NCBI GenBank assembly: GCA_000004985.1
Contig: GG738862.1
Length of the DNA: 64,000 nucleotides
From: Naegleria gruberi
Taxonomy: Eukaryota
Strand: one strand, 5' to 3'
Positions 14,523-35,441 of this stretch are shown here, piece by piece (position 1 is the first letter of the stretch; the number at the start of each line of letters is the position of its first letter). A program made the position numbers and the translations under genes. The notes beneath the pieces were generated by a model. That model was not told the DNA's origin. It worked only from the letters and a program-made list of their open reading frames with translations, and searched no databases.

Positions 14523-14525
14523 TTC

Positions 14526-15591: not shown

Positions 15592-15783
15592 GGGATTTCA
15601 TCAAAAGGAAAAGATTTCACTTTAACAAAATCAAATATAATCAAAAGAAAAGTTAAAAATATTAAATATTTAAAGTGTGGAACATTACTGATACAAACCT
15701 TATCTAATGAATGGATATTTAAAACTAACAATGATTTAAAAACGGTATTTCCATTTTTTAAATCAAAAAAGGACTTCTCTGAT

Positions 15784-16197
15784 TTGGAGGTGCACAACAT
15801 TTTGGGTCTGATTGCCAAATCAAGAAAAAGAAGAACACTACTAGATAACTTATTACCATCATGTATAGAAATAGTTGGAGATAGTGTAAATTCTATTTGT
15901 TTTCTATTACAAGATTATACACTTTATATATCAAATGAAGTTAATCAAAAACATAAGAAAATTTATTCTGTAAATTTCTTAAAATTAAATTTAATAGATA
16001 TTGGAATTCCATTAAAAGAATTAAGTTCAACCTCATTCCAAGATAGAAATTTAATTATTAAAAATAGAGATGGAAACATATTGTTTGGAATTGAAAAAAT
16101 ACCTAAATTAACACATTCCTTAATTTCACATTGCAAATTATTATTTGAAAAATTGAAATTGAATATTTTAACTGATATTGACATTATTTTATGTTAA
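15784..16197 (+). CDS. hypothetical ORF lacking any ATG (possible downstream exon or continuation of the 14526-15591 gene)
   Basis: 137 codons open from a GTG with no internal Met. It is in the same frame as 14668-15591. It is conserved in copy B (30330-30833), where a ~520-nt deletion brings it next to the upstream ORF. Confidence 0.25.
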   Translation: MEVHNILGLIAKSRKRRTLLDNLLPSCIEIVGDSVNSICFLLQDYTLYISNEVNQKHKKIYSVNFLKLNLIDIGIPLKELSSTSFQDRNLIIKNRDGNILFGIEKIPKLTHSLISHCKLLFEKLKLNILTDIDIILC

Positions 16198-16367
16198 TCA
16201 ATTTTTGATTTGTTGATAGAGGGAAGAGACAGGAAAATACAGCACGCATGGTACCTTCGCTGTAAATCACACAAAAAATTATTTAATTTAAATAATCTTT
16301 TAATTTAAACTATTGAAAGGAAAAGAAAATAAAGGAATTAAATAATTAAATTAAAGATATTACAAAC

Positions 16368-21156: not shown

Positions 21157-22332
21157 ATGGGCAAACATAATAAGAAAAAGAACAATCAAGCAAAACAACA
21201 ACACCAACAACAAGAACCACCAAACAAGAAAAACAAGACCGAACCATCTTCCCAACCAATTTATGATCTGAGTAGCTCTGCAAGTGATGCAAACTCATCC
21301 GACACAACAGTCGTTTCTCCAGTTTCAATTAATTCTCCTTCCATTGGTCCTTTAAATGTTGTTTCCAATGATCAGCAAAAGAATTTTTATGAAGATATGG
21401 CTAAGACAGCATCCTCTTTAGAAAAAATGATGACTTTATTTGGTTCTTATAACCAGAAATTGGAACAATCCTCAAAGATTGTTAATGCATCTTCCATTAA
21501 TTTGGAAAAATCTGCAAAGGAATTGGAAAAATTGTGTCAAATCAAAGCAGAAAATGAAAAATTGAAGAAAGAGGCAGCTACTCACATGAAAGAAATACAA
21601 GATAATGAAACCAAGTTAAAGAGATTGAACCAAGCCGAACAAAAGAATGTTGCGTTGGAAAAAGAAAACTCCACTTTGAAGGAACAAGCGAAATCTGTTA
21701 TGGAAAAAGTAAACCAAATCCAAACAGAAAACGAGAAGTTAACACAAGAAAACAAGAGGATTTTAGAAAATGAAATTCAATGTTTGGAATCTATTAGAAG
21801 TAAGGATATGGAAATTCTTTCATTGAAGAATAGAAAGGATTTTCAAGTATCAGATTCCAAGACAGAGGAGTTAGTTTCAGAGATGAGTCGTCTTACAGAT
21901 AATGCTAATAATTTGGTGTTTGATCTCATAGTTAATCTCAATGAAGATGATGAAACCTCTAAGTGGGTAGAAATGGTTCTTTCAACAGTGATCAACAAAA
22001 GCAGTCAACTATCAGAAGAGGAATTGAGTGAAGCTATTCTTGCCAAAAGTTATACAAAAGCATGGCAAGAATTCGCAAGTGCTCTTAACAACAACCCACA
22101 TCTGCAAGCTAAGATGAAGAATGATGCACCATTCCAATCAATCTTCCAACAACTCGTCAAGTCAAGTTGCAGGATTGTTGACATTTGCGAGAAATCAACT
22201 GTCCCAAAATTCAAACGTGACTGGTCATCATCATCTGACAAAGTCTGCATTGTGCCAGCAGTTGTAATTGACACGGACAACAAACGTGTTGTTGTGGTTG
22301 ATGGTCGTCACGTTGAAAAGTCGTCAAAATAA
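21157..22332 (+). CDS. coiled-coil protein, member of a local paralog family with a shared C-terminal domain (391 aa)
   Basis: ATG at 21157. Long heptad region (EKLKKEAATHMKEIQDNETKLKRLNQAEQKNVALEKENSTLKEQ...). The C-terminal segment SDSKTEELVSEMSRLTDNANNLVFDLIVNL...CRIVDICEKSTVPKFKRDWSSSSDKVCIVPAVVIDTDNKRVVVVDG is homologous to 32921-33631 and shares the [IF]PK[FI]..W...C..P motif with the other members. Confidence 0.6.
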   Translation: MGKHNKKKNNQAKQQHQQQEPPNKKNKTEPSSQPIYDLSSSASDANSSDTTVVSPVSINSPSIGPLNVVSNDQQKNFYEDMAKTASSLEKMMTLFGSYNQKLEQSSKIVNASSINLEKSAKELEKLCQIKAENEKLKKEAATHMKEIQDNETKLKRLNQAEQKNVALEKENSTLKEQAKSVMEKVNQIQTENEKLTQENKRILENEIQCLESIRSKDMEILSLKNRKDFQVSDSKTEELVSEMSRLTDNANNLVFDLIVNLNEDDETSKWVEMVLSTVINKSSQLSEEELSEAILAKSYTKAWQEFASALNNNPHLQAKMKNDAPFQSIFQQLVKSSCRIVDICEKSTVPKFKRDWSSSSDKVCIVPAVVIDTDNKRVVVVDGRHVEKSSK

Positions 22333-22353
22333 ACAAAAATTCACGAATTAAAA

Positions 22354-23895
22354 ATGTCTTTAACTGATGATGCTCTTTGTCAGAAATACTTTGGATCAAA
22401 ATTTGGTTTTTGTTCTCCATTTTACTTTGTTGTTCAAAACATTACGAATACAGTTCAAAAGTATAGCAAATCATCGATCTCTAGTACAATTAAAGATGAT
22501 GTACATGTTTCCAATTACTTAATTCTTGCTGACATATTGAAAGAGAATGGAAAACAAAACTGTTGTTTTCATGATGAAGCTTTCGAGCTATTTAAGAGCA
22601 ACATCTCCAGATTCATTGATCCTGATTCACCAAAGGAGCAATTAAATTCAATCAGCAAAAAGTATTTTGATTGTGAGTACAAAAAGTTGATGGACAACAT
22701 TACAGAAATGCTGAGCAGAAGTATTCCTCTAACTTCTTTTTCCAAAAATCAGCAAGTCCTTTCGAATTATCCCACTTTGGCAGATAAGATTGCAGAGGAT
22801 AAAAGCCAGACTGCTCACACTGTTTTCAAATTCTTACAATGTAATACTAATTTCTTTGAAGCCGTAGAGGACAATTCAGGAAAAACTCAAACAAGTGTTG
22901 GCTCTCAGGTCAATAATTCAACTTCTTCCCGTTCAACCATTGCTAGCTCTGCAACTAGCACTCCAAAAACCAATGCTAATACAACCAGAACTCCAACCTA
23001 CAGTAATAGTAACTACTCTGCTTTTAACTCAAATCAACCAAGTACCAATAATGATCCGAAGCCTGTTTCAATTGATGATTTTAGAAAAGTTATTAGTGAG
23101 GAGGTAAAGACCAGTATGGAACAAATCTTTGAGAGGTTCAAGAACTTCAGCTCCAATAACAATATTAATGCTGAGAATGAAGAGCTCAAGAAAAAACTTA
23201 CTGCAGAGGAGGAGAAGAATGGGGCACTGTCCTTAGAAATTGCAAATTTGAAACAACAAATGACAAAACTCAAAGAAGAAAATGCTATTCAATTACAAAT
23301 TAATGCAGATCAAAATCAAAAAATCTCAAATCTCTCATTGCTCGTTGAACAAAAGGAGAATTCTCAAAGACTCTTAGATTTAGGCGTGGTTTCTAATACC
23401 AAAACAGATCAGATTATTGATATGGCTAAGAGGGGGCTTTCAGAAATTAATGACAAAATTATCAATACTGTACTTGGTGCAGGTATTGAAGATTCCCAAG
23501 GAATTCTATTGGAAAAGTTTATGAAGATCTCTTTCTCACATGCTTTTTATTGTGCTTTCGATTCATTTGAGTCTGTTGTTGATTGTGCTTTCAGAAAGCT
23601 AATTACCTACATGAGTGAATCATTGCCTGGTTTAAAAACAGAGCAAACAGAAACAATTTTTACGGAATTCAAGGTTTCTCTTCAAAGTATGTTCTCTCTT
23701 ATCCATCAAATACCAAAGAATCTCAATATTAGATTTGATTTTTCAAGTGATATCAGAACTATGCATGTGGAAGAGATGACACAAGGAACTGGACAACCTG
23801 TAGCTACCGAATATTATTGCTTATTCCCTTCTCTTTATCATGGAGAGAGTTTGATAGAAAAAGGTTACGTTTTAAAGCTCACCAAGTATCAATAA
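22354..23895 (+). CDS. coiled-coil protein, paralog family member (513 aa)
   Basis: ATG at 22354. S/T/N-rich linker, coiled coil (ENEELKKKLTAEEEKNGALSLEIANLKQQMTKLKEENAIQLQ). C-terminus ...LNIRFDFSSD...YYCLFPSLYHGESLIEKGYVLKLTKYQ, closely matching the C-terminus of the 27701-28789 gene (FFCLFPTLYFGENVHVKGRVLEVKYLH). Confidence 0.6.
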   Translation: MSLTDDALCQKYFGSKFGFCSPFYFVVQNITNTVQKYSKSSISSTIKDDVHVSNYLILADILKENGKQNCCFHDEAFELFKSNISRFIDPDSPKEQLNSISKKYFDCEYKKLMDNITEMLSRSIPLTSFSKNQQVLSNYPTLADKIAEDKSQTAHTVFKFLQCNTNFFEAVEDNSGKTQTSVGSQVNNSTSSRSTIASSATSTPKTNANTTRTPTYSNSNYSAFNSNQPSTNNDPKPVSIDDFRKVISEEVKTSMEQIFERFKNFSSNNNINAENEELKKKLTAEEEKNGALSLEIANLKQQMTKLKEENAIQLQINADQNQKISNLSLLVEQKENSQRLLDLGVVSNTKTDQIIDMAKRGLSEINDKIINTVLGAGIEDSQGILLEKFMKISFSHAFYCAFDSFESVVDCAFRKLITYMSESLPGLKTEQTETIFTEFKVSLQSMFSLIHQIPKNLNIRFDFSSDIRTMHVEEMTQGTGQPVATEYYCLFPSLYHGESLIEKGYVLKLTKYQ

Positions 23896-23935
23896 TAGAA
23901 TGATGTAAACTAATTGTATTATTACATTACCCAAT

Positions 23936-25198
23936 TTATTTTTTCATTCTCTTGATTCTCTTGAATGCTGTTCCAATCAGCTCAGCCTTCTTATTTTCTC
24001 CAAGAACTAAAGCAGGAAGCACTGAAACAATCTCCTCTTCAGGTTGACTGGAATTCTCTTCTGAGATCTCTTTAACATCAACATAATCTACATAACCGAT
24101 AAGTTTGAAGCTTTTGGAGGAATAGATTTCACCATCAATTCCAATCCAAAGAAGAGAAATCTTTGGGAATCGCAATGATTGTGTTGCTTGTTCCAAATCT
24201 TTGGCCATTGAAACAATTTCAGAAAAGATGGATTCTCCAGTGAGGAGCATGTTCTTGCATTCATCGTTTTCTGCAGAGTTTAGGAATTTGTTCCAAGAGA
24301 TTTCAAACAGTTCCTTCTTTTCAATAGTTGGATTTTCAAATAAGCATTGGAAAATTGTATTGGAAAGGTAGTAAAGATACTTTTCATAGATTTCAGGAAG
24401 TCCAGTTTCCATTATGAAATCAAAACATTTTGAATCAATATTGGTTATCAATTTTGTACATTTCTCTACAACTTCTTGAGCTTGACTGTTGATGACCTCA
24501 CCAGAGTTGAGAAGTTCCATTGATCTTTGTAATGTTTGGAGATTGAGAATAGCTGCTTCTTTCTCTTTTATCAATTCTTGAATTCTTTCATCTTTTTCTT
24601 TGATTTCAATCTCAGCTTTCATTCTTGATTGATTCTCTTGGTTTAGTTCTCTTCTCACCTTCTCTAATTCTGTATGAGTTTGAGCTAGCTCTTTTGTTAG
24701 TGTGCTGAATCTGATTTCTAACGACTCGTTTTCATTCTTTTGCTGCTTCAATTCATCAACCAATTTTGACATAAAATTGTCAATCAAATTTACCTTTTCA
24801 ACAAGGCCATCAGAAGAGCTAACTTTGATATTTAGTTTCTCAATAATTTTATCAACTGCCTTTGTGATATTCTCATTGTCTAATGTAACACTTTTAAACT
24901 TCTCTTTAATTTCATTGGTAATAGTGATGGAGCCAGATCCTTGATAGGAAATCCTTACGAAAGGTTCACTGTTGGTTGTTGATTTCTCAAGCAGATCACT
25001 AGTTTCCTTTAGAATATCTAATAGTGTATCTCTCTTTACAATCGAATAACCTTCATTTAGAACAATGGATGAAAAATAAGTTTGTTTATCTGGAACTAGA
25101 TATTGTACATTGCAAAGAAGTTGCAACTCTTGCTTTATTTCTTCCTCTGGAGTAATATTTTTCTTGGCAGTATCAGAGGTAGTAGCTTTCTGTCCCAT
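23936..25198 (-). CDS. coiled-coil protein, paralog family member (420 aa)
   Basis: ATG at 25196-25198. Coiled coil (LKQQKNENESLEIRFSTLTKELAQTHTELEKVRRELNQENQSRMKAEIEIKEKDERIQELIKEKEAAILNLQ). C-terminal FPKISLLWIGIDGEIYSSKSFKLIGYVDYVDV resembles the family motif. Confidence 0.55.
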   Translation of the reverse strand: MGQKATTSDTAKKNITPEEEIKQELQLLCNVQYLVPDKQTYFSSIVLNEGYSIVKRDTLLDILKETSDLLEKSTTNSEPFVRISYQGSGSITITNEIKEKFKSVTLDNENITKAVDKIIEKLNIKVSSSDGLVEKVNLIDNFMSKLVDELKQQKNENESLEIRFSTLTKELAQTHTELEKVRRELNQENQSRMKAEIEIKEKDERIQELIKEKEAAILNLQTLQRSMELLNSGEVINSQAQEVVEKCTKLITNIDSKCFDFIMETGLPEIYEKYLYYLSNTIFQCLFENPTIEKKELFEISWNKFLNSAENDECKNMLLTGESIFSEIVSMAKDLEQATQSLRFPKISLLWIGIDGEIYSSKSFKLIGYVDYVDVKEISEENSSQPEEEIVSVLPALVLGENKKAELIGTAFKRIKRMKK

Positions 25199-25293
25199 TT
25201 TTTATTGCTTGGGAATTGTCAAATACGTCAAATGTCTAAGAGTCATATTTTGCATGTCATCACGTTACAACTATTAATTCACCTTTCAAAAAA

Positions 25294-27683
25294 ATGTACA
25301 TTGCTGATACACTCCACAAGTCCATCGTAGCATTCACCAAATCAACCCATGACAACGTTCAACCAGCACACTTGGAAGAACTCTTAAATTCTCTCCATTC
25401 AAACTTGGTTCAATTGACCAATTCTGAAGGAATGACAAGTTTGATCATTAGAGAATTTGCTCTACATGTCATTCTTCAATGGTTTTCAAAAGGAGAAGAT
25501 TTGGAAAATTTGCTCTCTGGAAATTGTAAATTTCAAGTTCTTTACATTTTGAAAAGCTTTTTGAAAGTCTCAGATCCAAATAATGTTGTTTGTAGCAGTG
25601 TTATTGTCTTGTTGCATTTGAAAAGAAGTTTTATGGAAAGATCTAAATTTAAATCGATTTTGGAAGAACCAGAGAGTTTGTCTAAACTTTTAGACTTGAA
25701 GAAACAATTCGAATCAATGATTGAAGAGCCGCTTCAGGTAAGTTTCATGTAGAAGGTTAAATTCATTAATTCAATAATTAGGGAAGTGGAAACTTTGATT
25801 TATTGATCAACATGTTGAAAAAATCCAAAGATTCAACAGAGAGAGAATTAATTATTGATATAATTACATCTCTTCCATCAAAAGTTCTTAAAATGATTTC
25901 GAATAGAAGCATGTCATATATTATTGAATTGGCCAAATCAATGGAAATTGAAAAGTCAGACGAAAATGATATTCATTGGGCTGATAAGATTACAACTCCA
26001 ATTTCTGTGAATCGAGCAGGGACAGAGCAAAAGAAGTGTATTCAATGTCTATGTGAAAAATTAGACGAAAAAGTTAGTCAATTACTTGCTGATTTCTCAT
26101 ATTGGGTTATTGAAACTAAAGGTGTATTTAGAGATTCCATTAGTGTTTTCATTGAATGCTTCGAAAGATATGGAATTGACAATGACAAGTTGTCACAAGA
26201 ACAGCAAGCAACAAATTTAGTAAGATTACTCTCCCGTATGAAATTCTTATCAGAATCAGGGTTCACATTGCCCAAATCGTTAGGTGAATTCATCAATAGA
26301 AGAAAAAATATAGTCATGTTTATTAAGAGCAACGATGAAATGAGAGTTTATTTTATTGAACATTTTGGTGAAAAGTATTTGACAATAGGTCAAGAAAATC
26401 AAATCAATACTCCTAAAACAGATCAAGAGCTTTTCAAATATGTTAAACCAACAATCAATTCATCCTCTATATCAATGCTCATCTCCCAGAATTTGGATTT
26501 TGAAACTCAACAAAAAGCTCAGCAATTCGAAACAACCCTGCAAGACATTAGACAAGATTCAGATAGTGATGTAATCATGCACGATGAATTCAATCTTCCA
26601 ATTGTTTGTAGCTCTTCAGACATAATGCCAAGTAGTAATACTCACCCACCTGCTACACACCAAACAGTCAACTTGTTAACAAATGGTTTATTGAATGAAA
26701 ATGGTTACAATACAAGATTAGAAAAACAGGAACCTCAAGTAATTCAACCTTTGAAAGTTCAATCATTCAGAAAATCTTGTGAAATTGAATCTTTTCCTTT
26801 TCAGGGTGACTTTACATTTGTTCAAGAAATTACCAGTTCCTTATTTAGTAACGTTTCAGATGTTAAGATTTCATACAAGAACAAATACATTATTGTTAGC
26901 AATAGTAATAATGGCAAAAATCAATTGCTTTTCTTTGATTTAAATACCAAAGAGTTAAAGAAGAACATTTCCTTTTTCGACAACATTAATGGAATAGCTA
27001 TTGAGAGAAATTTTGATGGACGAAACGATGCCATCATCTTGTCCACTGAAGAAAAGGTCCTCAAGTTCGATATTTCCAAACTAGTTCTCAATGGCACCGA
27101 CAAGAACTATCTATGGAGCAAAAAGTTGGAAATCACCTCTCGTTTTGCAGTCAAGAACGCTAAACTAGCAGCACTAACAATTCTCCACTCACCACACACA
27201 GAGAAAAAAGTAGAAAATGTTGTTTTCGTTTGTGATACCTCTTTCAATTGTATTCATATTTTGAGAAGCTCTGATGGAAAGATTTTAAAGAGAATTGGTG
27301 GAATTAACTCTACTGATAAGATGTCAATGTTTCATCCTAATTGGATTGACATTGATAGAGAGAGCTCTGAATTGGTAATATCAGAAACTATGTCGAATAA
27401 TGTTAGAGTGTTATTGGAAAGTTCTGAAACTAAAACTATTGAGACAAGATGTTTGCCAACCAAATTTAAACAAGTTGGAGGTATTGTATATGACAATTAT
27501 ACAAAAAACATTATAGTTTCAGATGTGATTGAGAATAGTATTCAAATATTCAATGCTATTGGAAACAGGGTGAATATATTGGCAGGGCAGGTCCATCATC
27601 CAAAGAGTTTATGTATCAATGAAGAAACAGGTGAATTGTATGTAAACGATTCAGGAAACAAGAGAATTGTAATTTACAAATAA
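25294..27683 (+). CDS. hypothetical protein with C-terminal NHL-like beta-propeller repeats (2 exons, ~781 aa)
   Basis: Exon 1 25294-25737 (ATG at 25294, ends ...EEPLQ). A 44-nt intron (GTAAGTTTCATG...AATAATTAG) spans ~25738-25781. Exon 2 is 25782-27683, in phase (GSGNFDLLINMLKKSKD...). The C-terminal third has NHL-like units (NNVRVLLESS, NSIQIFNAIG, DSGNKRIVIYK). Track ORFs 25294-25752 and 25803-27683 are the two exons. Confidence 0.6.
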
Positions 27684-27700
27684 TTTGTTTCTAATAAAAC

Positions 27701-28789
27701 TTAGTGTAAATACTTTACTTCTAGAACTCTTCCTTTCACGTGTACATTCTCTCCAAAATAAAGGGTTGGAAATAAACAAAAGAATTCTACCTTTTCAATT
27801 TGTGTGCCAGAACCGATAGTTACAGAACCATCGATTAAATGATTGTGTTTAGTTGACTTTTCGAACCATTCTAGACGAATGTTATATCCAAGCTCGAGAT
27901 TGTGAATTCTCTCAATAATACCATTCATAAATACTCGAAGTTCATGTAAGTGTTTTTCTGGAACCATTTTGTGAATATTATTAGTATTGATCAATTGGAT
28001 TAACTTTTGTTCTGCAAAGGAGACTAAAGTTAACGAATCATTCTGAGCTTGTGAAAATGCAGAACATATTGACATACACAAACTCTTCTCAATAAGAGAA
28101 CAAGTTTCTTCGCTAATATTAGGAATTGATAATAAGTAATTTACAACATCATTCTGAATGTTACTGATCTCTCTCGATGCCCTATCTAGTATCAATTCCA
28201 CATTCGAATTTGAAACTAATCCTTTCGAAATTAGATTTTCAGATAATTCTTTTTGTTGCGTGAGTGAATCCAACCAAGCCAAAAGTTCCAATTCTTTTTT
28301 TCGTAATAGTTCAATTTCTTCATCTTTCTTCTTTATCATTTCTTCTTGTTGTTCCATTCGAATCTTGATAGATTTTACAAGACTATCAGCTGAGCACTGT
28401 TGCAATTGATCAGAATCCAAAGAGCTTGTTTCAATTATTGCTAACCCTTCCGAACACAATTGTTCATCCAACAAAATTAGAAATTTTAATTCTGAATTAT
28501 TTTCACTACTCTCGCAAAAACATGAAACATTTGCTGGAGTTTGGTTTCTTGTTTTTAGGTACTTGATGATTAGTTGAGTGTTGGGATTTTCCATCTCGTT
28601 TTGAAAAAGGCTCCAAGCTTTTGCCATCTGTTTCCACATTTTTTTAATAATAGATTTGACAAGTTGTTGCAATTCCCAACTGTCACTTATCATATGTCTT
28701 CTCCCAAGTCTCAAAAACAAACGTGATGTCAAAGTGTAAAACAAAGAAAAAAACAACTCAATGGTACACATAGCCCGTACTATTACCAT
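27701..28789 (-). CDS. coiled-coil protein, paralog family member; true start probably an internal Met (~28696)
   Basis: The upstream ATG at 28787-28789 overlaps the divergent + gene start at 28761. The first 31 residues (MVIVRAMCTIELFF...) read like antisense translation; MISDSWELQQ... is the more plausible start. Coiled coil (MEQQEEMIKKKDEEIELLRKKELELLAWLDSL). C-terminus YNIRLEWF...FFCLFPTLYFGENVHVKGRVLEVKYLH. Confidence 0.55.
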   Translation of the reverse strand: MVIVRAMCTIELFFSLFYTLTSRLFLRLGRRHMISDSWELQQLVKSIIKKMWKQMAKAWSLFQNEMENPNTQLIIKYLKTRNQTPANVSCFCESSENNSELKFLILLDEQLCSEGLAIIETSSLDSDQLQQCSADSLVKSIKIRMEQQEEMIKKKDEEIELLRKKELELLAWLDSLTQQKELSENLISKGLVSNSNVELILDRASREISNIQNDVVNYLLSIPNISEETCSLIEKSLCMSICSAFSQAQNDSLTLVSFAEQKLIQLINTNNIHKMVPEKHLHELRVFMNGIIERIHNLELGYNIRLEWFEKSTKHNHLIDGSVTIGSGTQIEKVEFFCLFPTLYFGENVHVKGRVLEVKYLH

Positions 28790-29258
28790 AGCTGTTGACT
28801 TTGGTACTTCTCGCTCTGGTTTCGCCTACATTAACCATGGTGAAGATGTGAAATCTGACATTAAAACCTACAAGAATTGGGACGGAGCAGCTGTTCCATA
28901 CGATAAGAATCTAACCCAGATATTATATAATCCAGATGGTGAACCAATTAGCTTTGGTTACAATGCCCCAAAGGAGTACAGCGAACTGATCTACCACCCT
29001 TCATGTGACATTTCTCAATATACCTTGTTCAAGTATTTCAAGATGCAATTACAAAAGAAAACTAATCCAGATGGTATTTTAAGAAATGAAGTAACTGGTA
29101 GGGAATTTGATCTTGTCGAAGTTATTGCTGATTACTTGGTTTATATTCGAAAGATTATTGAAAAAATTACAGGTATCGATTTGACTATTCACAAGGAGAA
29201 TGTTCGTTGGTGTTTTACAGTTCCAGCTATTGGGAAGATGAAGAGAAACAACAAACTA
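28761..29258 (+). CDS. HSPA12-like atypical Hsp70 ATPase, N-terminal fragment truncated by assembly gap
   Basis: MVHIARTITIAVDFGTSRSGFAY matches the HSPA12 N-terminal phosphate-1 motif. VRWCFTVPAIGK matches the HSPA12 RWVITVPAIW block. The frame runs straight into the N run at 29259. Confidence 0.65.
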
Positions 29259-29308
29259 NNNNNNNNNNNNNNNNNNNNNNNNNNNNNNNNNNNNNNNNNN
29301 NNNNNNNN
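29259..29308. other. assembly gap (50 N)
   Basis: A run of n characters; it truncates the HSPA12-like ORF on the left and precedes duplicated copy B. Confidence 0.95.
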
Positions 29309-29341
29309 ATAAAAAGATGATATGAAACAAAATTAGCTGAT

Positions 29342-29653
29342 TTGAAAAAGAAGCTAAAAGAACACGAAACAGGAATACAGGAACTAAAGGAACAACACAA
29401 AACACAATTAGAGGAGCAAATGGATCAATATGAAACACAATTAGAGGAGCAATTAAATCAATACCAAGAACAATTAGAAGAGGAAAGAGCTTACAAAACA
29501 AAATTAGAGGAGCAAATTGAAAGTATGGGCAAAAATATTCAATCATTGTCGTCTAAACTAGCTAATTATGAATTTGATAGTTTGGTAAAGCCAAACAAAA
29601 GATGTTCCTGTGATTGTTCAATATGTAAGGGATGTCAAAAACCTGTTTTTTAA
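29342..29653 (+). CDS. 5'-truncated copy of the coiled-coil gene 3' end (copy B of 13815-14522)
   Basis: Identical C-terminal 103 aa (...EHETGIQELKEQHKTQLEEQ...CSCDCSICKGCQKPVF). The upstream part is missing at the gap. Confidence 0.3.
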   Translation: MKKKLKEHETGIQELKEQHKTQLEEQMDQYETQLEEQLNQYQEQLEEERAYKTKLEEQIESMGKNIQSLSSKLANYEFDSLVKPNKRCSCDCSICKGCQKPVF

Positions 29654-29656
29654 TTC

Positions 29657-30358
29657 TTGACAATCTTCTATCCAATAAATACATTTCTCGTATTGATTAA
29701 TCTTGTTTTATTCTCAATACTATTTAACAGAGGTTCTTTCGTGTTGTCACAATTTTTTCTGAGGAAACCTTTTCAGATGTTTCATTTCAAGGTCGAAATT
29801 GATTATTGGTCTTTGTTTTTTTCCAAAAAAATGTTCATTCCGATTCCTTCATGGAGTGATGATCATCACGTGGTGAATAATCCTCCGATAAATGATGATC
29901 AATCCAGTGATGATCATGAAACGTCTACAAACAATTTAAATCATGTAAAATTTCCATCATATGATTATAGTTACCTTATTGAAAAACAAAAATTGGAGAA
30001 TACATTTAATACTGCATTTATTGGTGGTAATGATCAAACAGAGTTTAAGAAGTATGATAAATGTATTAGTAATTTTAAATTGGATTCAGTGTCATCTCAC
30101 TATTGCGAGAATAGTAAACCATACATATCAAATAACAAATACTTGAATGAACTCTATCATATTTATATTAATGATGAAAAAAAAATTGAATTGAATAATA
30201 TTAATCATTTTTACAATAATACTTGGAAGAATGTTAATTTGGAAAATGGGTGTATTCATTCTATTGAAAATCATTTAAGATCAGTTACTGTTTATGGAAA
30301 AAATACTAATTTTTTTGTTTTAAATACATTTGATAGATTTAAGGAGATGGATATTTAA
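29657..30358 (+). CDS. hypothetical protein, copy B of 14526-15591 (frame intact at 5' end, truncated by internal deletion)
   Basis: One continuous frame MTIFYP...EIDYWSLFFSKKMFIPIPSWSDDHH...DRFKEMDI-stop. The last residues arise from the ~520-nt deletion junction. Confidence 0.3.
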   Translation: MTIFYPINTFLVLINLVLFSILFNRGSFVLSQFFLRKPFQMFHFKVEIDYWSLFFSKKMFIPIPSWSDDHHVVNNPPINDDQSSDDHETSTNNLNHVKFPSYDYSYLIEKQKLENTFNTAFIGGNDQTEFKKYDKCISNFKLDSVSSHYCENSKPYISNNKYLNELYHIYINDEKKIELNNINHFYNNTWKNVNLENGCIHSIENHLRSVTVYGKNTNFFVLNTFDRFKEMDI

Positions 30359-30833
30359 AACTAACAATGATTTAAAAACGGTATTTCCATTTTTTAAATC
30401 AAAAAAGGACTTCTCTGATTTGGAGGTGCACAACATTTTGGGTCTGATTGCCAAATCAAGAAAAAGAAGAACACTACTAGATAACTTATTACCATCATGT
30501 ATAGAAATAGTTGGAGATAGTGTAAATTCTATTTGTTTTCTATTACAAGATTATACACTTTATATATCAAATGAAGTTAATCAAAAGCATAAGAAAATTT
30601 ATTCTGTAAATTTCTTAAAATTAAATTTAATAGATATTGGAATTCCATTAAAAGAATTAAGTTCAACCTCATTCCAAGATAGAAATTTAATTATTAAAAA
30701 TAGAGATGGAAACATATTGTTTGGAATTGAAAAAATACCCAAATTAACACATTCCTTAATTTCACATTGCAAATTATTATTTGAAAAATTGAAATTGAAT
30801 ATTTTAACTGATATTGACATTATTTTATGTTAA
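30330..30833 (+). CDS. hypothetical ORF, copy B of 15784-16197
   Basis: Same sequence as copy A, with an upstream extension created by the deletion. It has no internal ATG. Confidence 0.25.
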   Translation: MIDLRRWIFKTNNDLKTVFPFFKSKKDFSDLEVHNILGLIAKSRKRRTLLDNLLPSCIEIVGDSVNSICFLLQDYTLYISNEVNQKHKKIYSVNFLKLNLIDIGIPLKELSSTSFQDRNLIIKNRDGNILFGIEKIPKLTHSLISHCKLLFEKLKLNILTDIDIILC

Positions 30834-30971
30834 TTATTTTACAACTAACTAGAAATTTTTGATTTGTTGATAGAGGGAAGAGACAGGGAAAATACAGCAC
30901 GCATGGTACCTTCTGTAAATCACAACAATTAAAATACAAAAAATTGTGTAAATAATTATAATATTACAAAC

Positions 30972-32870
30972 ATGATGCGCTTGCAAAAGTTAAAAAAAAT
31001 GGGAAAACGAAAACATTCAAAAATTTCAAAGGAAAAGAAAAATATTCATCAAAGGGAGGAAAAGTCTGCACCAGGAGTTGTTATGACTAATTTGCCAGAT
31101 GGAGCATCATTACAAATTTCTACAAAAAAGAAAAAGATGTCTCATGCTTCTTCTACTACTCCGAAGAATGATCAAATTGGATTGGAAATGATTGAAAAAT
31201 GGCAGCAAATTTTGAGTTTGCAAGATACACTCACCCTGATTCTGGGTTACATTCCCGAATATTTATTGGAGAGAACAATGAGATTTGTTAATAGGGATTT
31301 TTATCTTGCATCCTCTGTTGCTTGGAGAGAGAATATTCGAAGTTTGAAAATTCATGCATCATCACTCAAGGAAATAGAGATTGGTATTAAAAGATGGGAA
31401 AAACTCAAGAATTTGAAAGATGTAAAGATTTCGTTTACTGATTTTGATATATGCTATGAGTTTGATGTTTGTTGCTTGAGTCATTTGGGATTTGAAAAAA
31501 TTGGAGTTGTTAATACCACATCAATATTTTCCAAATCTCTTGTTGACACTAAATGGGTTGAAACTTTGAGATATTTACAAATTGATATTCATCAACAATA
31601 TTTTACTGCCTTGTTTGACTTGAATTTACACACTTTGGTTGTACAATTTCTTGAATTGGATGATAGTGAATTAATTATTGGAAAGGATGATAAGCCTTTA
31701 TTTAAAAGTTTAACCCATCTCGATTACTCGAGTATAGCATTCAATAACATGGATGAATTTTTGAATAGACTTGTTAACCTTAAAAAATTGAGAAATGGTG
31801 ATGATGACATGAGTATTGAGAATATCAAATTACCTAATTTGAAACACTATAATTGTATGCATGAATTAATGGGGATAGAAGAGGTATTTCCAAAGTTAGA
31901 ATCTCTAAAATCATATTCTAGTTTTTCAACAGCTAACGTGACAGGAGCAATCTCCCTAAAAACTTTAAAATCGGTAACCCTTAGTTTAGAATCAAAAACG
32001 ATTAGCTCTATTCCAGATGCACTGTTTAATTTACCACTCCTTGAAAAGTTGTCATTGCTTGTCTACTGCTCCAGTCTAACAAAATGTTCAAAAATTAACC
32101 CAAAACCATTGGATAATTTGAAAAAGGTAAAGCTTGTATTTTTTGAATACGAGAACGGTGAGCTTCCAATATCATTCTTTCATTTCAGAAAATGTAGCAA
32201 TATTGAAAAAATTAGATTTGAAGAGGAAAGTCAAAAGGTATTAGTGGATATGAATGATTTTTCAAATTTTCCATTATTGAAAAGTCTAGCAGTAACAGCT
32301 GGATCTGCTTCTAACTGGAATAGTCCTATTTGCACTCTGGAATCATTGGCAATTAATGTAAAAAAACAATGCTCAGTTACACTCACAGGACTAGACAAAC
32401 TGAAGCGTTTGGAATATGTATCACAAAATATGAATAGTCTGGTTCAATATCTAAATGATAACTCTAATGATTGTATTAGAGATTTGAATATTTCTGGAAA
32501 GGATATTTCAAAGTTCACATCATTTCCCTGTTGTTTGGAAACCCTCACCATTACACACATGTATCTAAAAGAAATTAATGAGAGATTTGTGAACATTGTC
32601 AAGAACCAAACCAACCTTAGAAAACTAGTCATTGAGGAATCCAAATTCGACCTGGTTCCACTCTTGGAATCGCTCACTTGTCTCATCCATCAAATTAGCA
32701 AAATACAATTGAGTGGTGAATGCTATCCTATACCATACTCTGAATCCAAATATATTACCAATTTACTCAAAGTCATATCAATATATGACTCCAAGAAAAT
32801 AGATCTCAAACTCAGTGGTTTTAATTATACATTCTCAAATCAATCAACTGGATATCTCATCTCTCAAATC
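30972..32870 (+). CDS. F-box-like/LRR-like protein, copy B (3' end lost in gap)
   Basis: About 99% identical to 16368-18302, with 5-6 amino-acid substitutions. The frame runs into the N run at 32871. Confidence 0.5.
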
Positions 32871-32920
32871 NNNNNNNNNNNNNNNNNNNNNNNNNNNNNN
32901 NNNNNNNNNNNNNNNNNNNN
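32871..32920. other. assembly gap (50 N)
   Basis: A run of n characters between the truncated copy-B gene and a 5'-truncated coiled-coil paralog. Confidence 0.95.
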
Positions 32921-33631
32921 ATCAGTCAAATACAGAAAACATTGCAAACTAAAGCTAGCACATCAGACTTATTCGTAGAAACTGTAGACAGGGAAAAGAG
33001 AAGGAATTCCATTGCTGAAGAGAAACTTCTTTCTGAAAACGAAACTTTGAGACAAGAAAAAGTTGATCTGTTGGGAAGAATCAGAGAGCTTGAAGAGAAG
33101 CAGAACAAGAGTGATGAACTTATTCGAAAGTTAGAATTGGAACTGGCCTCTTTCAGAAATAGAGAATCAATGGAAGTTACTGATTCAAAAACTGAACTAA
33201 TCCTTAATGAGATTACTAACTTATCTGCCAGAAATCAAGATATGATTTTTAATTACATGCTTGAGATTATTCCAAATGAGAATGATTCCGAATCTGAACT
33301 ATTCATTTCTCTCCTATCAAAATCTGTTTACAAATTAGAACCTGTTGATGAAAGACAGCAAATTAGCATGGCATGGGATAAGTTTAACTCCTCAATTATG
33401 AAACGTTTACCAAACTGCTACAAATTATTAATAGAAAACAAAGTTTACAAAGACAAATTCTTTGAAATTTTGAAGAATTGTCAAAGAATTAGTGATTTAT
33501 GTGAACAGTCACGAATTCCAAAGATTAGAATGGAGTGGGGTTCGTCTAAAGCAGGAATGGAGTGTATCTGCCCAGGAATAATGGCTGCCAATAGAGTAAT
33601 AGTCGATAGCATTTATTCTAAATATTTCTAA
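32921..33631 (+). CDS. coiled-coil paralog family member, 5' part missing (open frame from the gap edge)
   Basis: The frame is open from the first base after the gap (ISQIQKTLQTKASTSDLFVETVDREKRRNSIAEEKLLSENETLRQEK...). Its C-terminal 120 aa are homologous to 21157-22332 (TDSKTELILNEITNLSARNQDMIFNYMLEI...CQRISDLCEQSRIPKIRMEWGSSKAGMECICPGIMAANRVIV). Confidence 0.55.
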   Translation: MSQIQKTLQTKASTSDLFVETVDREKRRNSIAEEKLLSENETLRQEKVDLLGRIRELEEKQNKSDELIRKLELELASFRNRESMEVTDSKTELILNEITNLSARNQDMIFNYMLEIIPNENDSESELFISLLSKSVYKLEPVDERQQISMAWDKFNSSIMKRLPNCYKLLIENKVYKDKFFEILKNCQRISDLCEQSRIPKIRMEWGSSKAGMECICPGIMAANRVIVDSIYSKYF

Positions 33632-33637
33632 TAAAGG

Positions 33638-35281
33638 TTATTCGAAATGATTGACAGCCATGTGAGTCATAAAGGTGACAGTGGTTGTTACTTGCTTTGT
33701 TGCATCTGTTGGTATAACATCCACTCTCAAAGCATTAGCAGCACTCAAAGACAATCTCACTCTAAATATATCTCCAATACTCATGGACGAAACATCCACT
33801 TTCAGATCTGCCTGAAATACACAACCCATCTCATCAACAAAATTAACCTTTTTGACAGCTCTATAAATTTTGATTTCAATAATAGATGCATCAGTATTCT
33901 TTACAAATTGCTTATCAACATAGAATTGATCAGTGATTTCCTGATTAATGTTAATCATTGAGGAAAATACTCCAGTGCAAACGAAAGGTTCAGCCGAATC
34001 TCCCTCAATTCTCTTAAGTCTCTTCTCATCATCCTTACCAAATTTAAATGCTCTCTCACTTTCAATACCATAGGCATGTTTTGATCTTCTGCATGCAATC
34101 TTGTCTGGATTTCTTCCCAAATAGGCAGCACCTTTTACAACAGATTCAGATCCAAATGAAGGAACGACAATTTTACCCTTTGCCAACTCTTGAAAGACTT
34201 CCATTCTCTTCATAAGAAGTTTGGATTGTGAAAAGCCACCAACAAAGATTAAATAATTATAAATATCCTTATCAAGAATAGAATTGACAAAATCTTCAAT
34301 TTCAGCAAAAACTGAACCAAATACTTCAGTTTCTAATTCTTTCTTTGAAACTACAATGGAATCTAACTTGTACATTGAGTGACCTTTGAGACTTGGAATT
34401 GTGACTTTAAGTGGACAATATCCTTCATAATTAAACATTGTAATCTTTTGACTTTCCCATTGATTAGTAATATTTTGAATGTCAATGGAAGACAATGCAG
34501 AGTACAAATCGCCAAGTTTCGTTTTCAAATACTCTAACAAGAGTCTGTCTAATTTGGTACTTCCAGCATTGATTGCAGTAGAATACCTTGAACACTTTAA
34601 TTTACCATTCAATACACTGACAGCTGTCACATCAACAGTACCACCTCCAGCATCAACAACCAAATATCTTTCCCCATCTTTCATTTGCAATTGACTTTTA
34701 CATTCTTCCAAAATGTAAACAGCAGCAGCTTCAGGTTCCAACAAGAACATGAGAGTTTCTTCACCAGGATCTTCTTCTTCTACCAAACCAGCTTCAAAGA
34801 ACACCTTTTTAATAACTTGAATGTGTTCTCTTTCCCAATTTGCAGGAACAGTTGAAACCCAACGAACAGAATGAGGATCAAGTTTATACTTGGTTAAAGC
34901 AGAAGCAGAGAATAGTTTCAAATAGTCTGCTAGAACTTTAACCACACTGAATGATATGCCATTCACTACCATTTCCTTATCTTCGTCTGGATCAATAAAT
35001 AGAGCTTGTTTCATTCCTGTGAGAAAGTAATAGTTGACTTTAACGTCATCTGTCATGGCAAAGTATTTCTTGCTTGCTTCGTAACCAATGCTATCCACCT
35101 GGAGAAATGAATTGTATAATACACATGTCTTGTTTTTCAGTTGACTTTTACCATTTTCATCATCGTGTCTAACAGTTTCAGGTGTTTGTGAAGTTTGAGG
35201 AAGAACACAAATACCACTCAGTGTCGATCCTAGATCGAGAGAGACGTTTGTTTTAGTGAGTGTGTCAATGAATCCTACCAT
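33638..35281 (-). CDS. HSPA12-like atypical Hsp70 ATPase (~547 aa)
   Basis: The track ORF starts at 35389 with TTG; the first ATG is at ~35279-35281 (MVGFIDTLTKTNVSLDLGSTLSGICV, the phosphate-1 motif). VRWVSTVPANWE matches HSPA12 RWVITVPAIW. LVVDAGGGTVDVTAVSV matches the Hsp70 phosphate-2/GGGT motif. A C-terminal lid-like region follows. Paralogous to 28761-29258. Confidence 0.7.
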   Translation of the reverse strand: MVGFIDTLTKTNVSLDLGSTLSGICVLPQTSQTPETVRHDDENGKSQLKNKTCVLYNSFLQVDSIGYEASKKYFAMTDDVKVNYYFLTGMKQALFIDPDEDKEMVVNGISFSVVKVLADYLKLFSASALTKYKLDPHSVRWVSTVPANWEREHIQVIKKVFFEAGLVEEEDPGEETLMFLLEPEAAAVYILEECKSQLQMKDGERYLVVDAGGGTVDVTAVSVLNGKLKCSRYSTAINAGSTKLDRLLLEYLKTKLGDLYSALSSIDIQNITNQWESQKITMFNYEGYCPLKVTIPSLKGHSMYKLDSIVVSKKELETEVFGSVFAEIEDFVNSILDKDIYNYLIFVGGFSQSKLLMKRMEVFQELAKGKIVVPSFGSESVVKGAAYLGRNPDKIACRRSKHAYGIESERAFKFGKDDEKRLKRIEGDSAEPFVCTGVFSSMININQEITDQFYVDKQFVKNTDASIIEIKIYRAVKKVNFVDEMGCVFQADLKVDVSSMSIGDIFRVRLSLSAANALRVDVIPTDATKQVTTTVTFMTHMAVNHFE

Positions 35282-35441
35282 TTTTTTTAAATATTGGAAG
35301 TAAATTGACGTGTTGACATTGAAGGATGGTTGGGAATTGTCAAAGACGTGTGACAAAACTTGACGAGTGATACAAAAACGTGGTGGCAATTAATTGTATC
35401 AATTTTGAGCTGCTATTATGCTTGTCCAATTGGTTTATTAT

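What the first reader, a model, noticed from the sequence alone, without database searches (positions are those of the whole stretch)
21157..35389. Cluster of five paralogous coiled-coil proteins sharing a novel C-terminal domain, interleaved with two HSPA12-like atypical Hsp70 ATPase genes
Within ~14 kb there are five genes (21157-22332+, 22354-23895+, 23936-25198-, 27701-28789-, 32921-33631+) encoding long coiled-coil proteins. Their C-termini share a motif pattern: [IFY]-P/N-K/I-[FIR]-x-x-x-W, then ~15-25 aa, then C-[ILF]-x-P-x-[LIV] and (K/D)G-x-[VIL]-[VL] (e.g. VPKFKRDW...CIVPAVVIDTDNKRVVVVDG; IPKIRMEW...CICPGIMAANRVIV; YNIRLEWF...FFCLFPTLYFGENVHVKGRVL; LNIRFDFS...YYCLFPSLYHGESLIEKGYVL; FPKISLLW...). 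Two pairs are especially close: 391-aa/229-aa and 513-aa/362-aa. Two atypical Hsp70 genes sit among them (28761- fragment; 33638-35281), with HSPA12 hallmarks AVDFGTSRSGFAY, RW..TVPA.W and VVDAGGGTVDV. A sixth coiled-coil gene with an NHL-like C-terminus (25294-27683) is also in the cluster. The co-localisation suggests a locally amplified and possibly functionally coupled module (client or co-factor pairs), but no known domain is assignable to the shared C-terminus.
Basis: partly seen in the sequence, partly recalled or inferred. Interest (0 to 1): 0.7.

Follow-up and report, generated by a model that had tools for sequence, protein, structure and literature searches.

The report
Coiled-coil family linked to atypical Hsp70s
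In the amoeba Naegleria gruberi, five neighbouring genes share a previously undescribed protein tail domain and sit among unusual Hsp70-type ATPase genes; the same pairing recurs in the related genus Willaertia, where the tail is even fused to an Hsp70-like domain, so the two families probably work together.

Summary

Corrections:
- The Hsp70 fragment is the 5' end of a gene cut by an assembly gap; its orthologue is an 814-aa Hsp70-NBD plus vWA (MIDAS) fusion.
- Gene E is also cut by a gap.
- The 3.6 kb between the two gaps is a near-identical copy of 14.2-18.3 kb, probably misplaced.
- The NHL gene is one gene with a 44-nt intron and has no CTD.

New evidence for coupling:
- Gene order is conserved in the second Naegleria-like genome.
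- In Willaertia magna, three Hsp70-like genes (one vWA-fused) are bracketed by two CTD genes, while the flanking genes differ.
- One Willaertia CTD gene is a single ORF: degenerate Hsp70-like NBD, coiled coil, CTD.

Best reading: the CTD proteins are dedicated partners (adaptors or clients) of these ATPases. The mechanism is inferred.

The parts
21157..22332 (+). Gene A (391 aa, NAEGRDRAFT_79393): basic/low-complexity N-terminus, coiled-coil stretch, CTD at 21838-22329
   Evidence: AlphaFold model of the CTD: pLDDT 81, pTM 0.79, five helices plus five strands.
22354..23895 (+). Gene B (513-aa ORF): unique N-terminal head, short coiled coil, CTD at 23377-23892. The public model (P0003, 326 aa) mis-splices away part of the CTD
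23936..25198 (-). Gene C (420 aa, NAEGRDRAFT_48352): N-terminus MGQKATT fits the N-myristoylation pattern, then a coiled coil, then the CTD at 23939-24508 with a disordered insert in its beta part
25294..27683 (+). NHL-repeat gene: a single gene with a 44-nt phase-0 intron at 25738-25781 and no CTD. It is present in the Naegleria-type cluster only
   Evidence: It is absent from the Willaertia loci.
27701..28627 (-). Gene D (probably 308 aa starting at Met55; the ORF runs on to 28789): CTD at 27704-28228
28628..28760 (.). 133-bp head-to-head intergenic region between D and the Hsp70-vWA gene. It contains TGGGAATTG (28670-28678, minus strand) and an AAACGTGA box; both blocks are conserved in the orthologous 144-bp region
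   Evidence: Its role as a promoter is inferred.
28761..29258 (+). 5' end (166 codons) of an atypical Hsp70 gene cut by an assembly gap. The orthologue is 814 aa: Hsp70 NBD, C-terminal region, then a vWA domain with an intact MIDAS (DKSGSM...GGTSF...SDGE)
29259..32920 (.). Two 50-N gaps (29259-29308, 32871-32920) enclosing a 3.56-kb contig that is a 96.5-99.4% copy of window 14179-18266. It is probably misplaced or a very recent duplicate and is not part of the module. The orthologous locus has no such insert
32921..33631 (+). Gene E, lacking its first 26 codons because of the gap (full length 258 aa, NAEGRDRAFT_76913): CTD at 33167-33628
33638..35281 (-). Atypical Hsp70 gene H583 (547 aa from Met37; the ORF extends to 35389): NBD with intact ATP motifs and no canonical substrate-binding domain. 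TGGGAATTG lies 50 bp upstream of the start (35331-35339)

Best explanation
This is a conserved heterolobosean gene module. It combines atypical Hsp70-type ATPases with a lineage-restricted family of proteins. One ATPase has an NBD plus a non-canonical C-terminal region; a second has the same plus a vWA/MIDAS domain. The family proteins are built as [variable N-terminal head]-[coiled coil]-[novel CTD of five helices plus a small beta-sheet].

In Naegleria the family grew to five copies by local duplication, forming the A/E pair, the B/D pair and C.

Proposed mechanism (inferred, not shown):
- The CTD is the common docking or assembly module through which coiled-coil scaffolds with different heads engage the neighbouring ATPases.
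- One scaffold, C, is possibly anchored to membrane by myristoylation.
- The ATPases use ATP turnover to assemble, remodel or release these scaffolds.
- The vWA MIDAS site would supply a metal-dependent grip on an acidic residue of a partner.

Shown: homology of the five CTDs, their novelty, intact ATPase and MIDAS motifs, conserved linkage in two further genomes, and the NBD-CC-CTD fusion.

Inferred: physical interaction, the direction of the relationship (cofactor or adaptor versus client), and any cellular role.
For: 1. The family is real and the domain is new.
- BLASTP pairs at 2e-19 and 3e-18.
- Leave-one-out hhalign at 95-97% probability over about 140 columns, against E 0.1-0.9 for unrelated controls.
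- The same order of secondary-structure elements in independent models of A (pLDDT 81) and C (pLDDT 71).
- No hit in Pfam, NCBIfam or PADLOC.
- Only 7 hits in 1.84e9 representatives, all products of these genes or their orthologues.

2. The CTD is the most conserved part of every orthologue pair: 55-67% identity against 36-57% for the rest.

3. Linkage is conserved.
- The order A,B,C,NHL,D,Hsp70-vWA,E is identical in locus L001 from another Naegleria-like organism, at 45-79% aa identity.
- In Willaertia magna the layout is [CTD gene -][Hsp70 +][Hsp70-vWA -][Hsp70 +][CTD gene +] on three contigs.
- There the CTD is detected by a Naegleria-only HMM at E 7e-10 to 4e-8.
- None of about 30 other window ORFs has a specific counterpart in the Willaertia loci; the only other hit is a generic kinase-like match.

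4. Rosetta-stone fusion. The Willaertia 716/709-aa gene is one uninterrupted ORF. Its first 350 aa match the Hsp70-like NBD profile (hhalign 96.3%, E 2e-9, 208 columns) with a degraded P2 motif, DAGKKDV. A coiled coil and the CTD follow.

5. Signs of co-regulation.
- A CTD gene sits head-to-head with an Hsp70 gene in both genera, with 133, 144 and 295 bp between them.
- All three Willaertia promoter regions carry a 130-200-bp element at 93-98% identity, while the coding DNA of the Hsp70 paralogues is only 69-71% identical.

6. The ATPases look active. DxG, EPEAAA, DAGGGTxD and GG motifs are invariant in the heterolobosean proteins, and the MIDAS is intact.
Against: - No interaction, expression or localisation data exist. 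No paper mentions these genes.
- Complex prediction could not be run.
- In eukaryotes, neighbouring genes need not be functionally related, and tandem duplicates stay adjacent by default.
- The second Naegleria-like genome may simply be broadly collinear with N. gruberi.
- In L001 there is no H583 orthologue within 240 bp downstream of E', so that adjacency is not shown to be conserved.
- The Willaertia fusion is split into two gene models in one of the three copies.
- Acrasis kona also has two paralogous coiled-coil genes next to two Hsp70-like genes, but their homology to the CTD is not significant (HMM no hit; hhalign E 0.26).
- The library-wide search would have missed relatives as divergent as Willaertia's (about 30 bits). 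'Only in this locus' therefore holds only for moderately diverged copies.
Confidence: 0.6

Rival explanations
1. Neutral neighbourhood. The five genes are ordinary tandem or segmental duplicates of a lineage-specific coiled-coil gene. They merely happen to lie beside duplicated Hsp70-like genes, and linkage persists by descent without functional coupling.
For: - Tandem duplicates remain adjacent by default.
- The window holds other local duplicates: FNT genes at 35.5-38.4 kb with 70.7% identity, and internal repeats at 3.9-4.8 kb.
- No functional data exist.
- An unrelated NHL gene sits inside the Naegleria cluster but not the Willaertia one.
Against: - In Willaertia only the two families are retained together, while all flanking genes differ.
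- The NBD-CC-CTD fusion exists.
- Head-to-head pairing recurs in both genera.
- The Willaertia cluster shares promoter repeats.
- Acrasis shows the same architecture of paired Hsp70-likes plus paired coiled-coil genes.
Confidence: 0.2
2. Stress or immune-type conflict module. The atypical Hsp70s plus vWA act as the sensor or switch of a lineage-specific defence or stress system, and the diversifying CTD proteins serve as adaptors or effectors. This would parallel prokaryotic NTPase-centred conflict systems.
For: - The nearest non-heterolobosean relatives include a Streptomyces Hsp70-like gene in an operon-like run with YjcZ-like, patatin, GDPD and DUF4231 genes beside a Fic gene.
- Prokaryotic CoCoNuT type III systems combine Hsp70-like NBD/SBD proteins, coiled coils and vWA genes (PMC11090510).
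- Copy number and head domains of the CTD family vary between genera: 5 in Naegleria against 2 in Willaertia.
- A shared adaptor-like domain on several neighbouring genes, also fused to the NTPase, is the logic of effector-associated domains.
Against: - No recognisable effector (nuclease, lipase, TIR, pore-former) lies in the cluster, and PADLOC gives no real hit.
- There is no CTD in the bacterial loci.
- No viral relatives were found.
- Divergence of the CTD genes between the two Naegleria-type genomes (45-61%) is no greater than that of the neighbouring NHL gene (57%).
Confidence: 0.12
3. Artefact. The shared 'domain' is only coiled-coil or low-complexity similarity, or the paralogues are assembly duplicates.
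For: - The scaffold does contain two gaps and a duplicated contig.
- Weak hits to SMC, crescentin and OmpH-type coiled-coil families appear for C.
Against: - The profile comparisons used only the region after the coiled coil, yet reach E 1e-8 to 4e-10, while controls give E above 0.1.
- AlphaFold models a compact globular helix bundle plus beta-sheet.
- The paralogues are only 15-30% identical, far too diverged to be assembly copies.
- All five have separate orthologues in L001.
Confidence: 0.02

Closest known systems
HSPA12A/HSPA12B-type atypical Hsp70s (metazoan; expanded in bivalves)
   Same: - Divergent Hsp70/actin-like NBD with intact phosphate-1, EPEAAA, phosphate-2 and adenosine motifs.
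- No canonical substrate-binding domain or lid.
- Sequence relatives include a bivalve B-box protein and many fungal 'Hsp70-like / actin-like ATPase' proteins carrying DUF8340.
   Different: - To my knowledge HSPA12 proteins are not described with a vWA fusion, a linked coiled-coil partner family, or an NBD-CC-CTD fusion.
ATPase plus vWA/MIDAS chaperone-like pairs (MoxR-vWA such as RavA-ViaA; midasin/Rea1)
   Same: An ATPase is coupled, by fusion or adjacency, to a vWA domain with a complete MIDAS. In the known systems that site grips an acidic residue of a partner, and the ATPase remodels the partner (established knowledge; PMC10585395 and PMC7159879 appeared in the search).
   Different: The ATPase here has the Hsp70/actin fold, not AAA+. 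No partner of the MIDAS is known.
Dedicated Hsp70 partner genes encoded next to specialised Hsp70s (bacterial HscA-HscB, HscC-DjlB/C, DnaK-DnaJ-GrpE); BAG-type helical-bundle exchange factors
   Same: A specialised Hsp70 paralogue with its own partner protein encoded alongside. The CTD, like BAG, is largely a helical bundle.
   Different: - The CTD proteins have no J domain, GrpE or BAG signature.
- This is a eukaryotic nuclear locus.
CoCoNuT type III systems and other prokaryotic NTPase-centred conflict systems (PMC11090510; PMC7159879)
   Same: Hsp70-like NBD proteins, extensive coiled coils and vWA genes co-occur in one locus. The logic of one shared adaptor domain on several neighbouring gene products is also similar.
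   Different: - There is no McrB GTPase, DUF2357, HEPN or other effector here, and PADLOC is negative.
- No homology was shown between the CTD and any component of those systems.

Membership tests
Hsp70 superfamily (nucleotide-binding domain, Pfam PF00012) | Significant match to the HSP70 profile above the curated cut-off | tested here: met
   - H583: 22.8 bits against a cut-off of 20.6.
- Orthologue of the fragment (814 aa): 43.3 bits.
- The profile of both matches DnaK/Hsc70 NBDs at 6e-12.
Hsp70 superfamily (nucleotide-binding domain, Pfam PF00012) | ATP-binding and hydrolysis motifs: phosphate-1 DxG, EPxAAA, phosphate-2 DxGGGTxD, adenosine GG | tested here: met
   These columns are invariant across nine related proteins. 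The motifs are listed per protein.
Canonical Hsp70 chaperone (DnaK/Hsc70 type) | Substrate-binding beta-sandwich plus helical lid after the NBD | tested here: not met
   The PDB profile search aligns only profile positions of about 44-433 to NBDs. Nothing matches the last 150 aa or so.
HSPA12 subfamily | Closer to HSPA12A/B than to other Hsp70 clades (reciprocal best match or CDD cd10229) | not testable with these tools
   - No HSPA12 reference sequence or model was available in the libraries.
- No HSPA12 structure appeared in PDB hits.
- The motif resemblance (xVDFGTSxSGxAY, RWxxTVPAxW, VVDAGGGTVD) rests on recall only.
vWA domain with MIDAS | VWA profile match above threshold, plus DxSxS...T...D | tested here: met
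   - Met in the orthologues only. L001 814 aa: VWA 30.5 bits against 23.8, DKSGSM at residue 633. Willaertia 786 aa: VWA_2 31.8 bits against 27.
- In the window itself this part of the gene lies in the assembly gap.
Known Hsp70 co-chaperones (J-domain, GrpE, BAG, HspBP1/Sil1) | Profile match of the CTD proteins to any of these families | tested here: not met
NHL-repeat beta-propeller (gene 25294-27683) | NHL repeat profile match above the cut-off | tested here: inconclusive
   - Window protein: 18.3 bits, below the cut-off of 20.
- Its orthologue: 31.1 bits, above the cut-off.
- NCBIfam ScyF NHL: 1.7e-9.
Coiled-coil proteins | Heptad-repeat segment upstream of the CTD | tested here: inconclusive
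   - There are weak matches of C to SMC, crescentin, OmpH and FPP rods at residues of about 95-260.
- The crude heptad scan was positive for A, C and D only.
- No dedicated predictor or structure model was run on these segments.
Prokaryotic defence systems (PADLOC set, including CoCoNuT-like or McrBC) | Match of any cluster protein to a defence-system model | tested here: not met
   The only hits are coiled-coil noise for C (DruC, JetC, LmuB; 7e-5 to 5e-3). There are none for the Hsp70-likes, A, B or NHL.

The most novel reading that the evidence does not exclude
The module is a self-contained, co-regulated eukaryotic machine. In it, HSPA12-type ATPases (one carrying a MIDAS 'hand', and in Willaertia one inactivated copy built into the scaffold itself) drive assembly and disassembly of membrane-tethered coiled-coil scaffolds through a novel docking domain.

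If so, these would be the first genetically defined partners for the enigmatic HSPA12-like branch of Hsp70s. The module might serve a stress or anti-pathogen response in free-living amoebae.
Probability: 0.2. Interest if true: 0.7.

Novelty: new variant of a known kind. Interest (0 to 1): 0.55.

Why it matters
Atypical Hsp70s of the HSPA12 kind are widespread in animals, fungi, bacteria and protists. They are expanded in stress-tolerant invertebrates, yet they have no known co-chaperones, clients or mechanism.

A conserved gene neighbourhood plus a domain fusion is classical comparative-genomic evidence for a functional partnership. Here it nominates a concrete, testable partner family, and a vWA/MIDAS handle, in a culturable organism (N. 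gruberi).

It also adds a new globular domain with no detectable sequence or structural relatives. And it gives a rare example of an operon-like, apparently co-regulated gene module in a eukaryote.

Practically, the analysis flags errors in the public N. gruberi assembly and annotation at this locus.

Tried and rejected
- **Word-indexed protein searches.** With A or with the CTD alignment these returned only self or orthologue hits.
- **Acrasis kona.** Its two coiled-coil genes next to the Hsp70 pair look analogous and share a 'CE..-P+xxxW' motif in register. However, the HMM and hhalign (E 0.26; 0.1-0.9 per subfamily) are not significant, so I do not claim homology.
- **Bacterial and fungal contexts of Hsp70-like relatives.** Loci L006, L007 and L008 contain no CTD, and the fungal-type locus has no cluster.
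- **Metagenome scan with the Hsp70-vWA alignment.** It found only a canonical bacterial DnaK (L009), which is irrelevant. The full 13-sequence CTD alignment was too divergent for pattern scans. Viral scans with the subfamily alignments were negative.
- **N-terminal heads of A-D and the NHL protein.** They are unrelated to each other and to Hsp70, which rejects the idea that the Naegleria heads are eroded NBDs.
- **Extending L001 to look for the H583 orthologue.** This was not possible with the allowed look-ups. No trace of it lies within 240 bp after E'.
- **Looking up P0004 for its scaffold.** It is not on record.
- **Literature.** Nothing was found on these gene IDs, on ERR1598038, or on HSPA12 with Naegleria.
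- **Promoter 9-mer TGGGAATTG.** Its count in the window is not significant on its own, and it was found post hoc. I keep it only as a lead.
Full report
**Source and layout**

The window is Naegleria gruberi nuclear DNA. ORF A is 100% identical to NAEGRDRAFT_79393 on a 502-kb scaffold. GC is about 33%.

It also contains two 50-N assembly gaps, at 29259-29308 and 32871-32920. The 3.56 kb between the gaps is a 96.5-99.4% copy of window 14179-18266.

Surrounding genes are ordinary and unrelated to the cluster. They include a teneurin-like NHL/EGF protein, a GT61-like protein, LRR, BTB and VPS9 proteins, a P-type ATPase and tandem formate/nitrite transporters.

**Is the shared C-terminus real?**

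Yes. BLASTP gives A~E 2e-19 (196 aa) and B~D 3e-18 (188 aa). C matches all the others only weakly, at 0.003-0.035.

I cut the proteins at the end of the coiled coil ('V[ST][DN]SKTE...') and added orthologues. Subfamily profiles then match each other. In a leave-one-subfamily-out test, each of A/E, B/D and C matches the profile of the rest:

| Subfamily left out | Probability | E-value | Columns |
|---|---|---|---|
| A/E | 95.6% | 1.2e-8 | 139 |
| B/D | 95.2% | 2.8e-8 | 140 |
| C | 96.7% | 3.9e-10 | 138 |

The matched columns span the helices and the terminal 'P-K-[IF]-x-x-x-W ... C-[IL]-x-P' beta segment.

The same method on the N-terminal heads of A-D, the NHL protein and the Hsp70 profile gives E 0.1-0.9 and probabilities below 1%. 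That result serves as a negative control. It also shows the heads are unrelated to each other.

An HMM of the domain finds exactly five copies in the six-frame translation of the 64-kb window.

AlphaFold2 models a compact fold for A (pLDDT 81, pTM 0.79): helices 7-34, 38-55, 65-83, 87-94 and 97-119, then five short strands. For C (pLDDT 71, pTM 0.72) it gives the same order of elements, with a disordered insert in the beta part. The two models used overlapping shallow alignments, so they are not fully independent.

**Is the domain known?**

No match was found in any library:
- Pfam, NCBIfam and PADLOC give nothing beyond coiled-coil noise.
- Foldseek against PDB and viral models has no hit with E below 0.2.
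- An exhaustive HMMER search of 1.84 billion cluster representatives found seven proteins at E of 1e-3 or better. All are the N. gruberi products of these genes or their orthologues from one other sample.

One caveat applies. That profile accidentally included the coiled-coil columns of one full-length sequence. The library-wide threshold of about 45 bits would also miss relatives as divergent as those later found in Willaertia.

**Corrections to the gene models**

- The Hsp70 'fragment' (28761-29258, + strand) is the intact 5' end of a gene that runs into the gap. Only residues 32-188 of its 814-aa orthologue have a counterpart in the window.
- That orthologue is an Hsp70 NBD (Pfam 2e-11) plus a vWA domain (5e-7, above the cut-off) with a complete MIDAS, DKSGSM...GGTSF...SDGE.
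- E lacks its first 26 codons for the same reason. The complete 258-aa protein (NAEGRDRAFT_76913) sits on an unplaced 2.8-kb scaffold.
- D most likely starts at Met55, by comparison with its orthologue.
- The public model of B mis-splices part of the CTD.
- The NHL gene is a single gene with a 44-nt GTAAGT...AG intron, conserved in the orthologue. It has no CTD.

**The Hsp70-like proteins**

H583 and the vWA-fused paralogue align over about 600 aa. They keep all ATP-binding motifs. They match only the NBD of DnaK/Hsc70 in PDB, with no canonical substrate-binding domain.

Their nearest relatives, in order, are:
- Willaertia (38% and 34% identity) and Acrasis (31%);
- metagenomic and Streptomyces 'Hsp70 family' proteins;
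- many fungal Hsp70-like proteins carrying DUF8340;
- a bivalve B-box protein.

The 'HSPA12-like' label is plausible but could not be tested against HSPA12 itself.

**Linkage in other genomes**

*Second Naegleria-like genome.* A Logan contig from another Naegleria-like organism (L001) has the same genes in the same order and orientation: A', B', C'(-), NHL', D'(-), Hsp70-vWA', E'. Amino-acid identity is 45-79%, and there is no LRR insert between Hsp70-vWA' and E'. This indicates that the window's inter-gap contig is misplaced or very recent. In every pair the CTD is more conserved than the rest of the protein.

*Willaertia magna, a different genus.* Three contigs carry [327-aa gene -][Hsp70 563 +][Hsp70-vWA 786 -][Hsp70 550 +][716-aa gene +].
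- A CTD HMM built only from the Naegleria-type sequences hits the 327-aa and the 716/709-aa genes at E 7e-10 to 4e-8, over model positions 16-163.
- Among about 33 window ORFs, only the Hsp70-likes (by BLAST) and the CTD genes (by HMM) have specific counterparts in these loci. The one other hit is a generic kinase-like match. Microsynteny is therefore specific to the module.

*A fusion.* The 716/709-aa gene is a single uninterrupted ORF in two of the three copies. Its first 350 aa are homologous to the Hsp70-like NBD (hhalign 96.3%, E 2e-9, 208 columns). The catalytic motifs are degraded: DAGKKDV replaces DAGGGTVD, and LPKPVAVY replaces EPEAAAVY. A coiled coil and the CTD follow. This is a Rosetta-stone fusion of the two families.

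*Acrasis kona.* Two Hsp70-like genes, one with a different C-terminal extension, are followed by two paralogous coiled-coil genes. Each has a 'CE...P+xxxW' segment. Homology to the CTD is not statistically supported.

*Elsewhere.* A fungal-type locus and two bacterial loci with related Hsp70-likes have no CTD and no such cluster.

**Hints of co-regulation**

A CTD gene is head-to-head with an Hsp70-like gene in both genera. The spacing is 133 bp for D|Hsp70-vWA in the window, 144 bp in L001, and 295 bp in Willaertia.

In Willaertia all three promoter regions of the cluster share a 130-200-bp element at 93-98% identity. The two CTD-coding 3' ends form a 650-bp inverted repeat (90.5%) around the Hsp70 genes. 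The Hsp70 paralogues themselves are only 69-71% identical at the DNA level. This pattern points to gene conversion or selection acting on these parts.

In the window, the 9-mer TGGGAATTG occurs three times, each 100 bp or less upstream of a cluster gene start. The core is conserved in the orthologous D|Hsp70-vWA spacer, together with an AAACGTGA box. The count alone is not significant (expected 1.04) and the motif was found post hoc, so this remains only a lead.

**Interpretation**

*Shown:* a real, locally amplified family with a new globular domain; intact ATPase and MIDAS motifs; linkage of the two families conserved across genera while the flanks change; and a fusion joining them.

*Inferred:* the CTD is the module through which coiled-coil scaffolds with different heads engage the atypical Hsp70 ATPases, as adaptors, cofactors or clients.
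- One scaffold per genome may be myristoylated. C (MGQKATT, MGQKVSF) and Willaertia 327 (MGNSQAQ) fit the PROSITE pattern.
- The vWA MIDAS would provide a second attachment point, by analogy with MoxR-vWA and midasin systems.

I put about 0.6 on functional coupling and much less on any specific mechanism.

*Rivals:*
- neutral linkage, about 0.2;
- a stress or immune-type conflict module, about 0.12, suggested by the defence-island-like context of a bacterial relative and by CoCoNuT type III systems (PMC11090510), but lacking any effector;
- artefact, about 0.02, which is refuted.

**Novelty and score**

No publication mentions these genes. The CTD is a new domain family. As far as I could find, the combination of atypical Hsp70, Hsp70-vWA and CTD proteins has not been described.

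It is a new variant of a known theme: a specialised ATPase with dedicated partners encoded alongside. It is not a new category. Interest is moderate (0.55). The finding offers testable partners for a poorly understood Hsp70 branch, but the family is lineage-restricted and its function remains inferred.

Noticed in passing
window 29309-32870 versus 14179-18266 (gaps at 29259-29308 and 32871-32920): The contig between the two N-gaps is a 96.5-99.4% copy of an upstream segment that includes a 644/668-aa LRR-like ORF, with about 485 bp missing. The orthologous locus has no such insert. It is probably a misplaced haplotype or duplicate contig occupying the place of about 2.2 kb of missing Hsp70-vWA and E sequence.
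   Followed up: partly
window 22354-23895 (gene B) and 32921-33631 (gene E): There are public annotation problems here. The JGI/NCBI model of B (326 aa) drops the first 119 codons and splices out part of the CTD. Full-length E (NAEGRDRAFT_76913, 258 aa) is on a separate 2.8-kb scaffold.
   Followed up: partly
window 25210-25218 (+), 28670-28678 (-), 35331-35339 (+); L001 4148 (-), 7573 (-): TGGGAATTG occurs only three times in 64 kb, each time 100 bp or less upstream of a cluster gene start. Its core is conserved in the orthologous D|Hsp70-vWA spacer next to an AAACGTGA box. The motif was found post hoc and the count alone is not significant (expected 1.04). It may be a shared cis-element.
   Followed up: partly
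L002 8674-9324 versus 18905-18259; L002 9729-9925, 14382-14580, 16483-16614: In Willaertia the CTD-coding ends of the two flanking genes form a 650-bp inverted repeat (90.5%) around the three Hsp70-like genes. All three promoter regions share a 130-200-bp element at 93-98% identity, far above the 69-71% of the Hsp70 coding DNA. This suggests gene conversion or a conserved promoter module.
   Followed up: partly
window 25198 (start of C); L001 4091; L002 9705: The N-termini of C (MGQKATT), its orthologue (MGQKVSF) and the Willaertia 327-aa CTD protein (MGNSQAQ) fit the N-myristoylation consensus. A and A' start with MG followed by a polybasic run but do not fit the pattern.
   Followed up: no
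window 25738-25781; L001 about 4655-4699: The NHL gene has a 44-nt phase-0 intron (GTAAGT...AG), with donor and acceptor contexts conserved in the orthologue. The two ORFs 25294-25752 and 25803-27683 are therefore one gene of about 780 aa.
   Followed up: yes
L005 12023-14566: The longer Acrasis kona Hsp70-like protein (847 aa) carries a C-terminal extension of about 250 aa that is not a vWA domain by Pfam, in the position where Naegleria and Willaertia have vWA.
   Followed up: no
window 35534-36586 versus 37332-38372: There is a tandem pair of intron-containing formate/nitrite transporter genes (70.7% DNA identity), each with a Q-rich N-terminal extension.
   Followed up: no
window 3615-6575 (-): A 986-aa protein has teneurin-type NHL and EGF domains and internal DNA repeats (3947-4778, about 70% identity). 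This is an animal-like architecture in a heterolobosean.
   Followed up: no
L006 8001-14168 (Streptomyces sp.): A bacterial relative of these Hsp70-likes heads an operon-like run with a 284-aa unknown protein, a YjcZ-like protein, patatin, GDPD and DUF4231, next to a Fic gene. The arrangement looks like a defence island.
   Followed up: no
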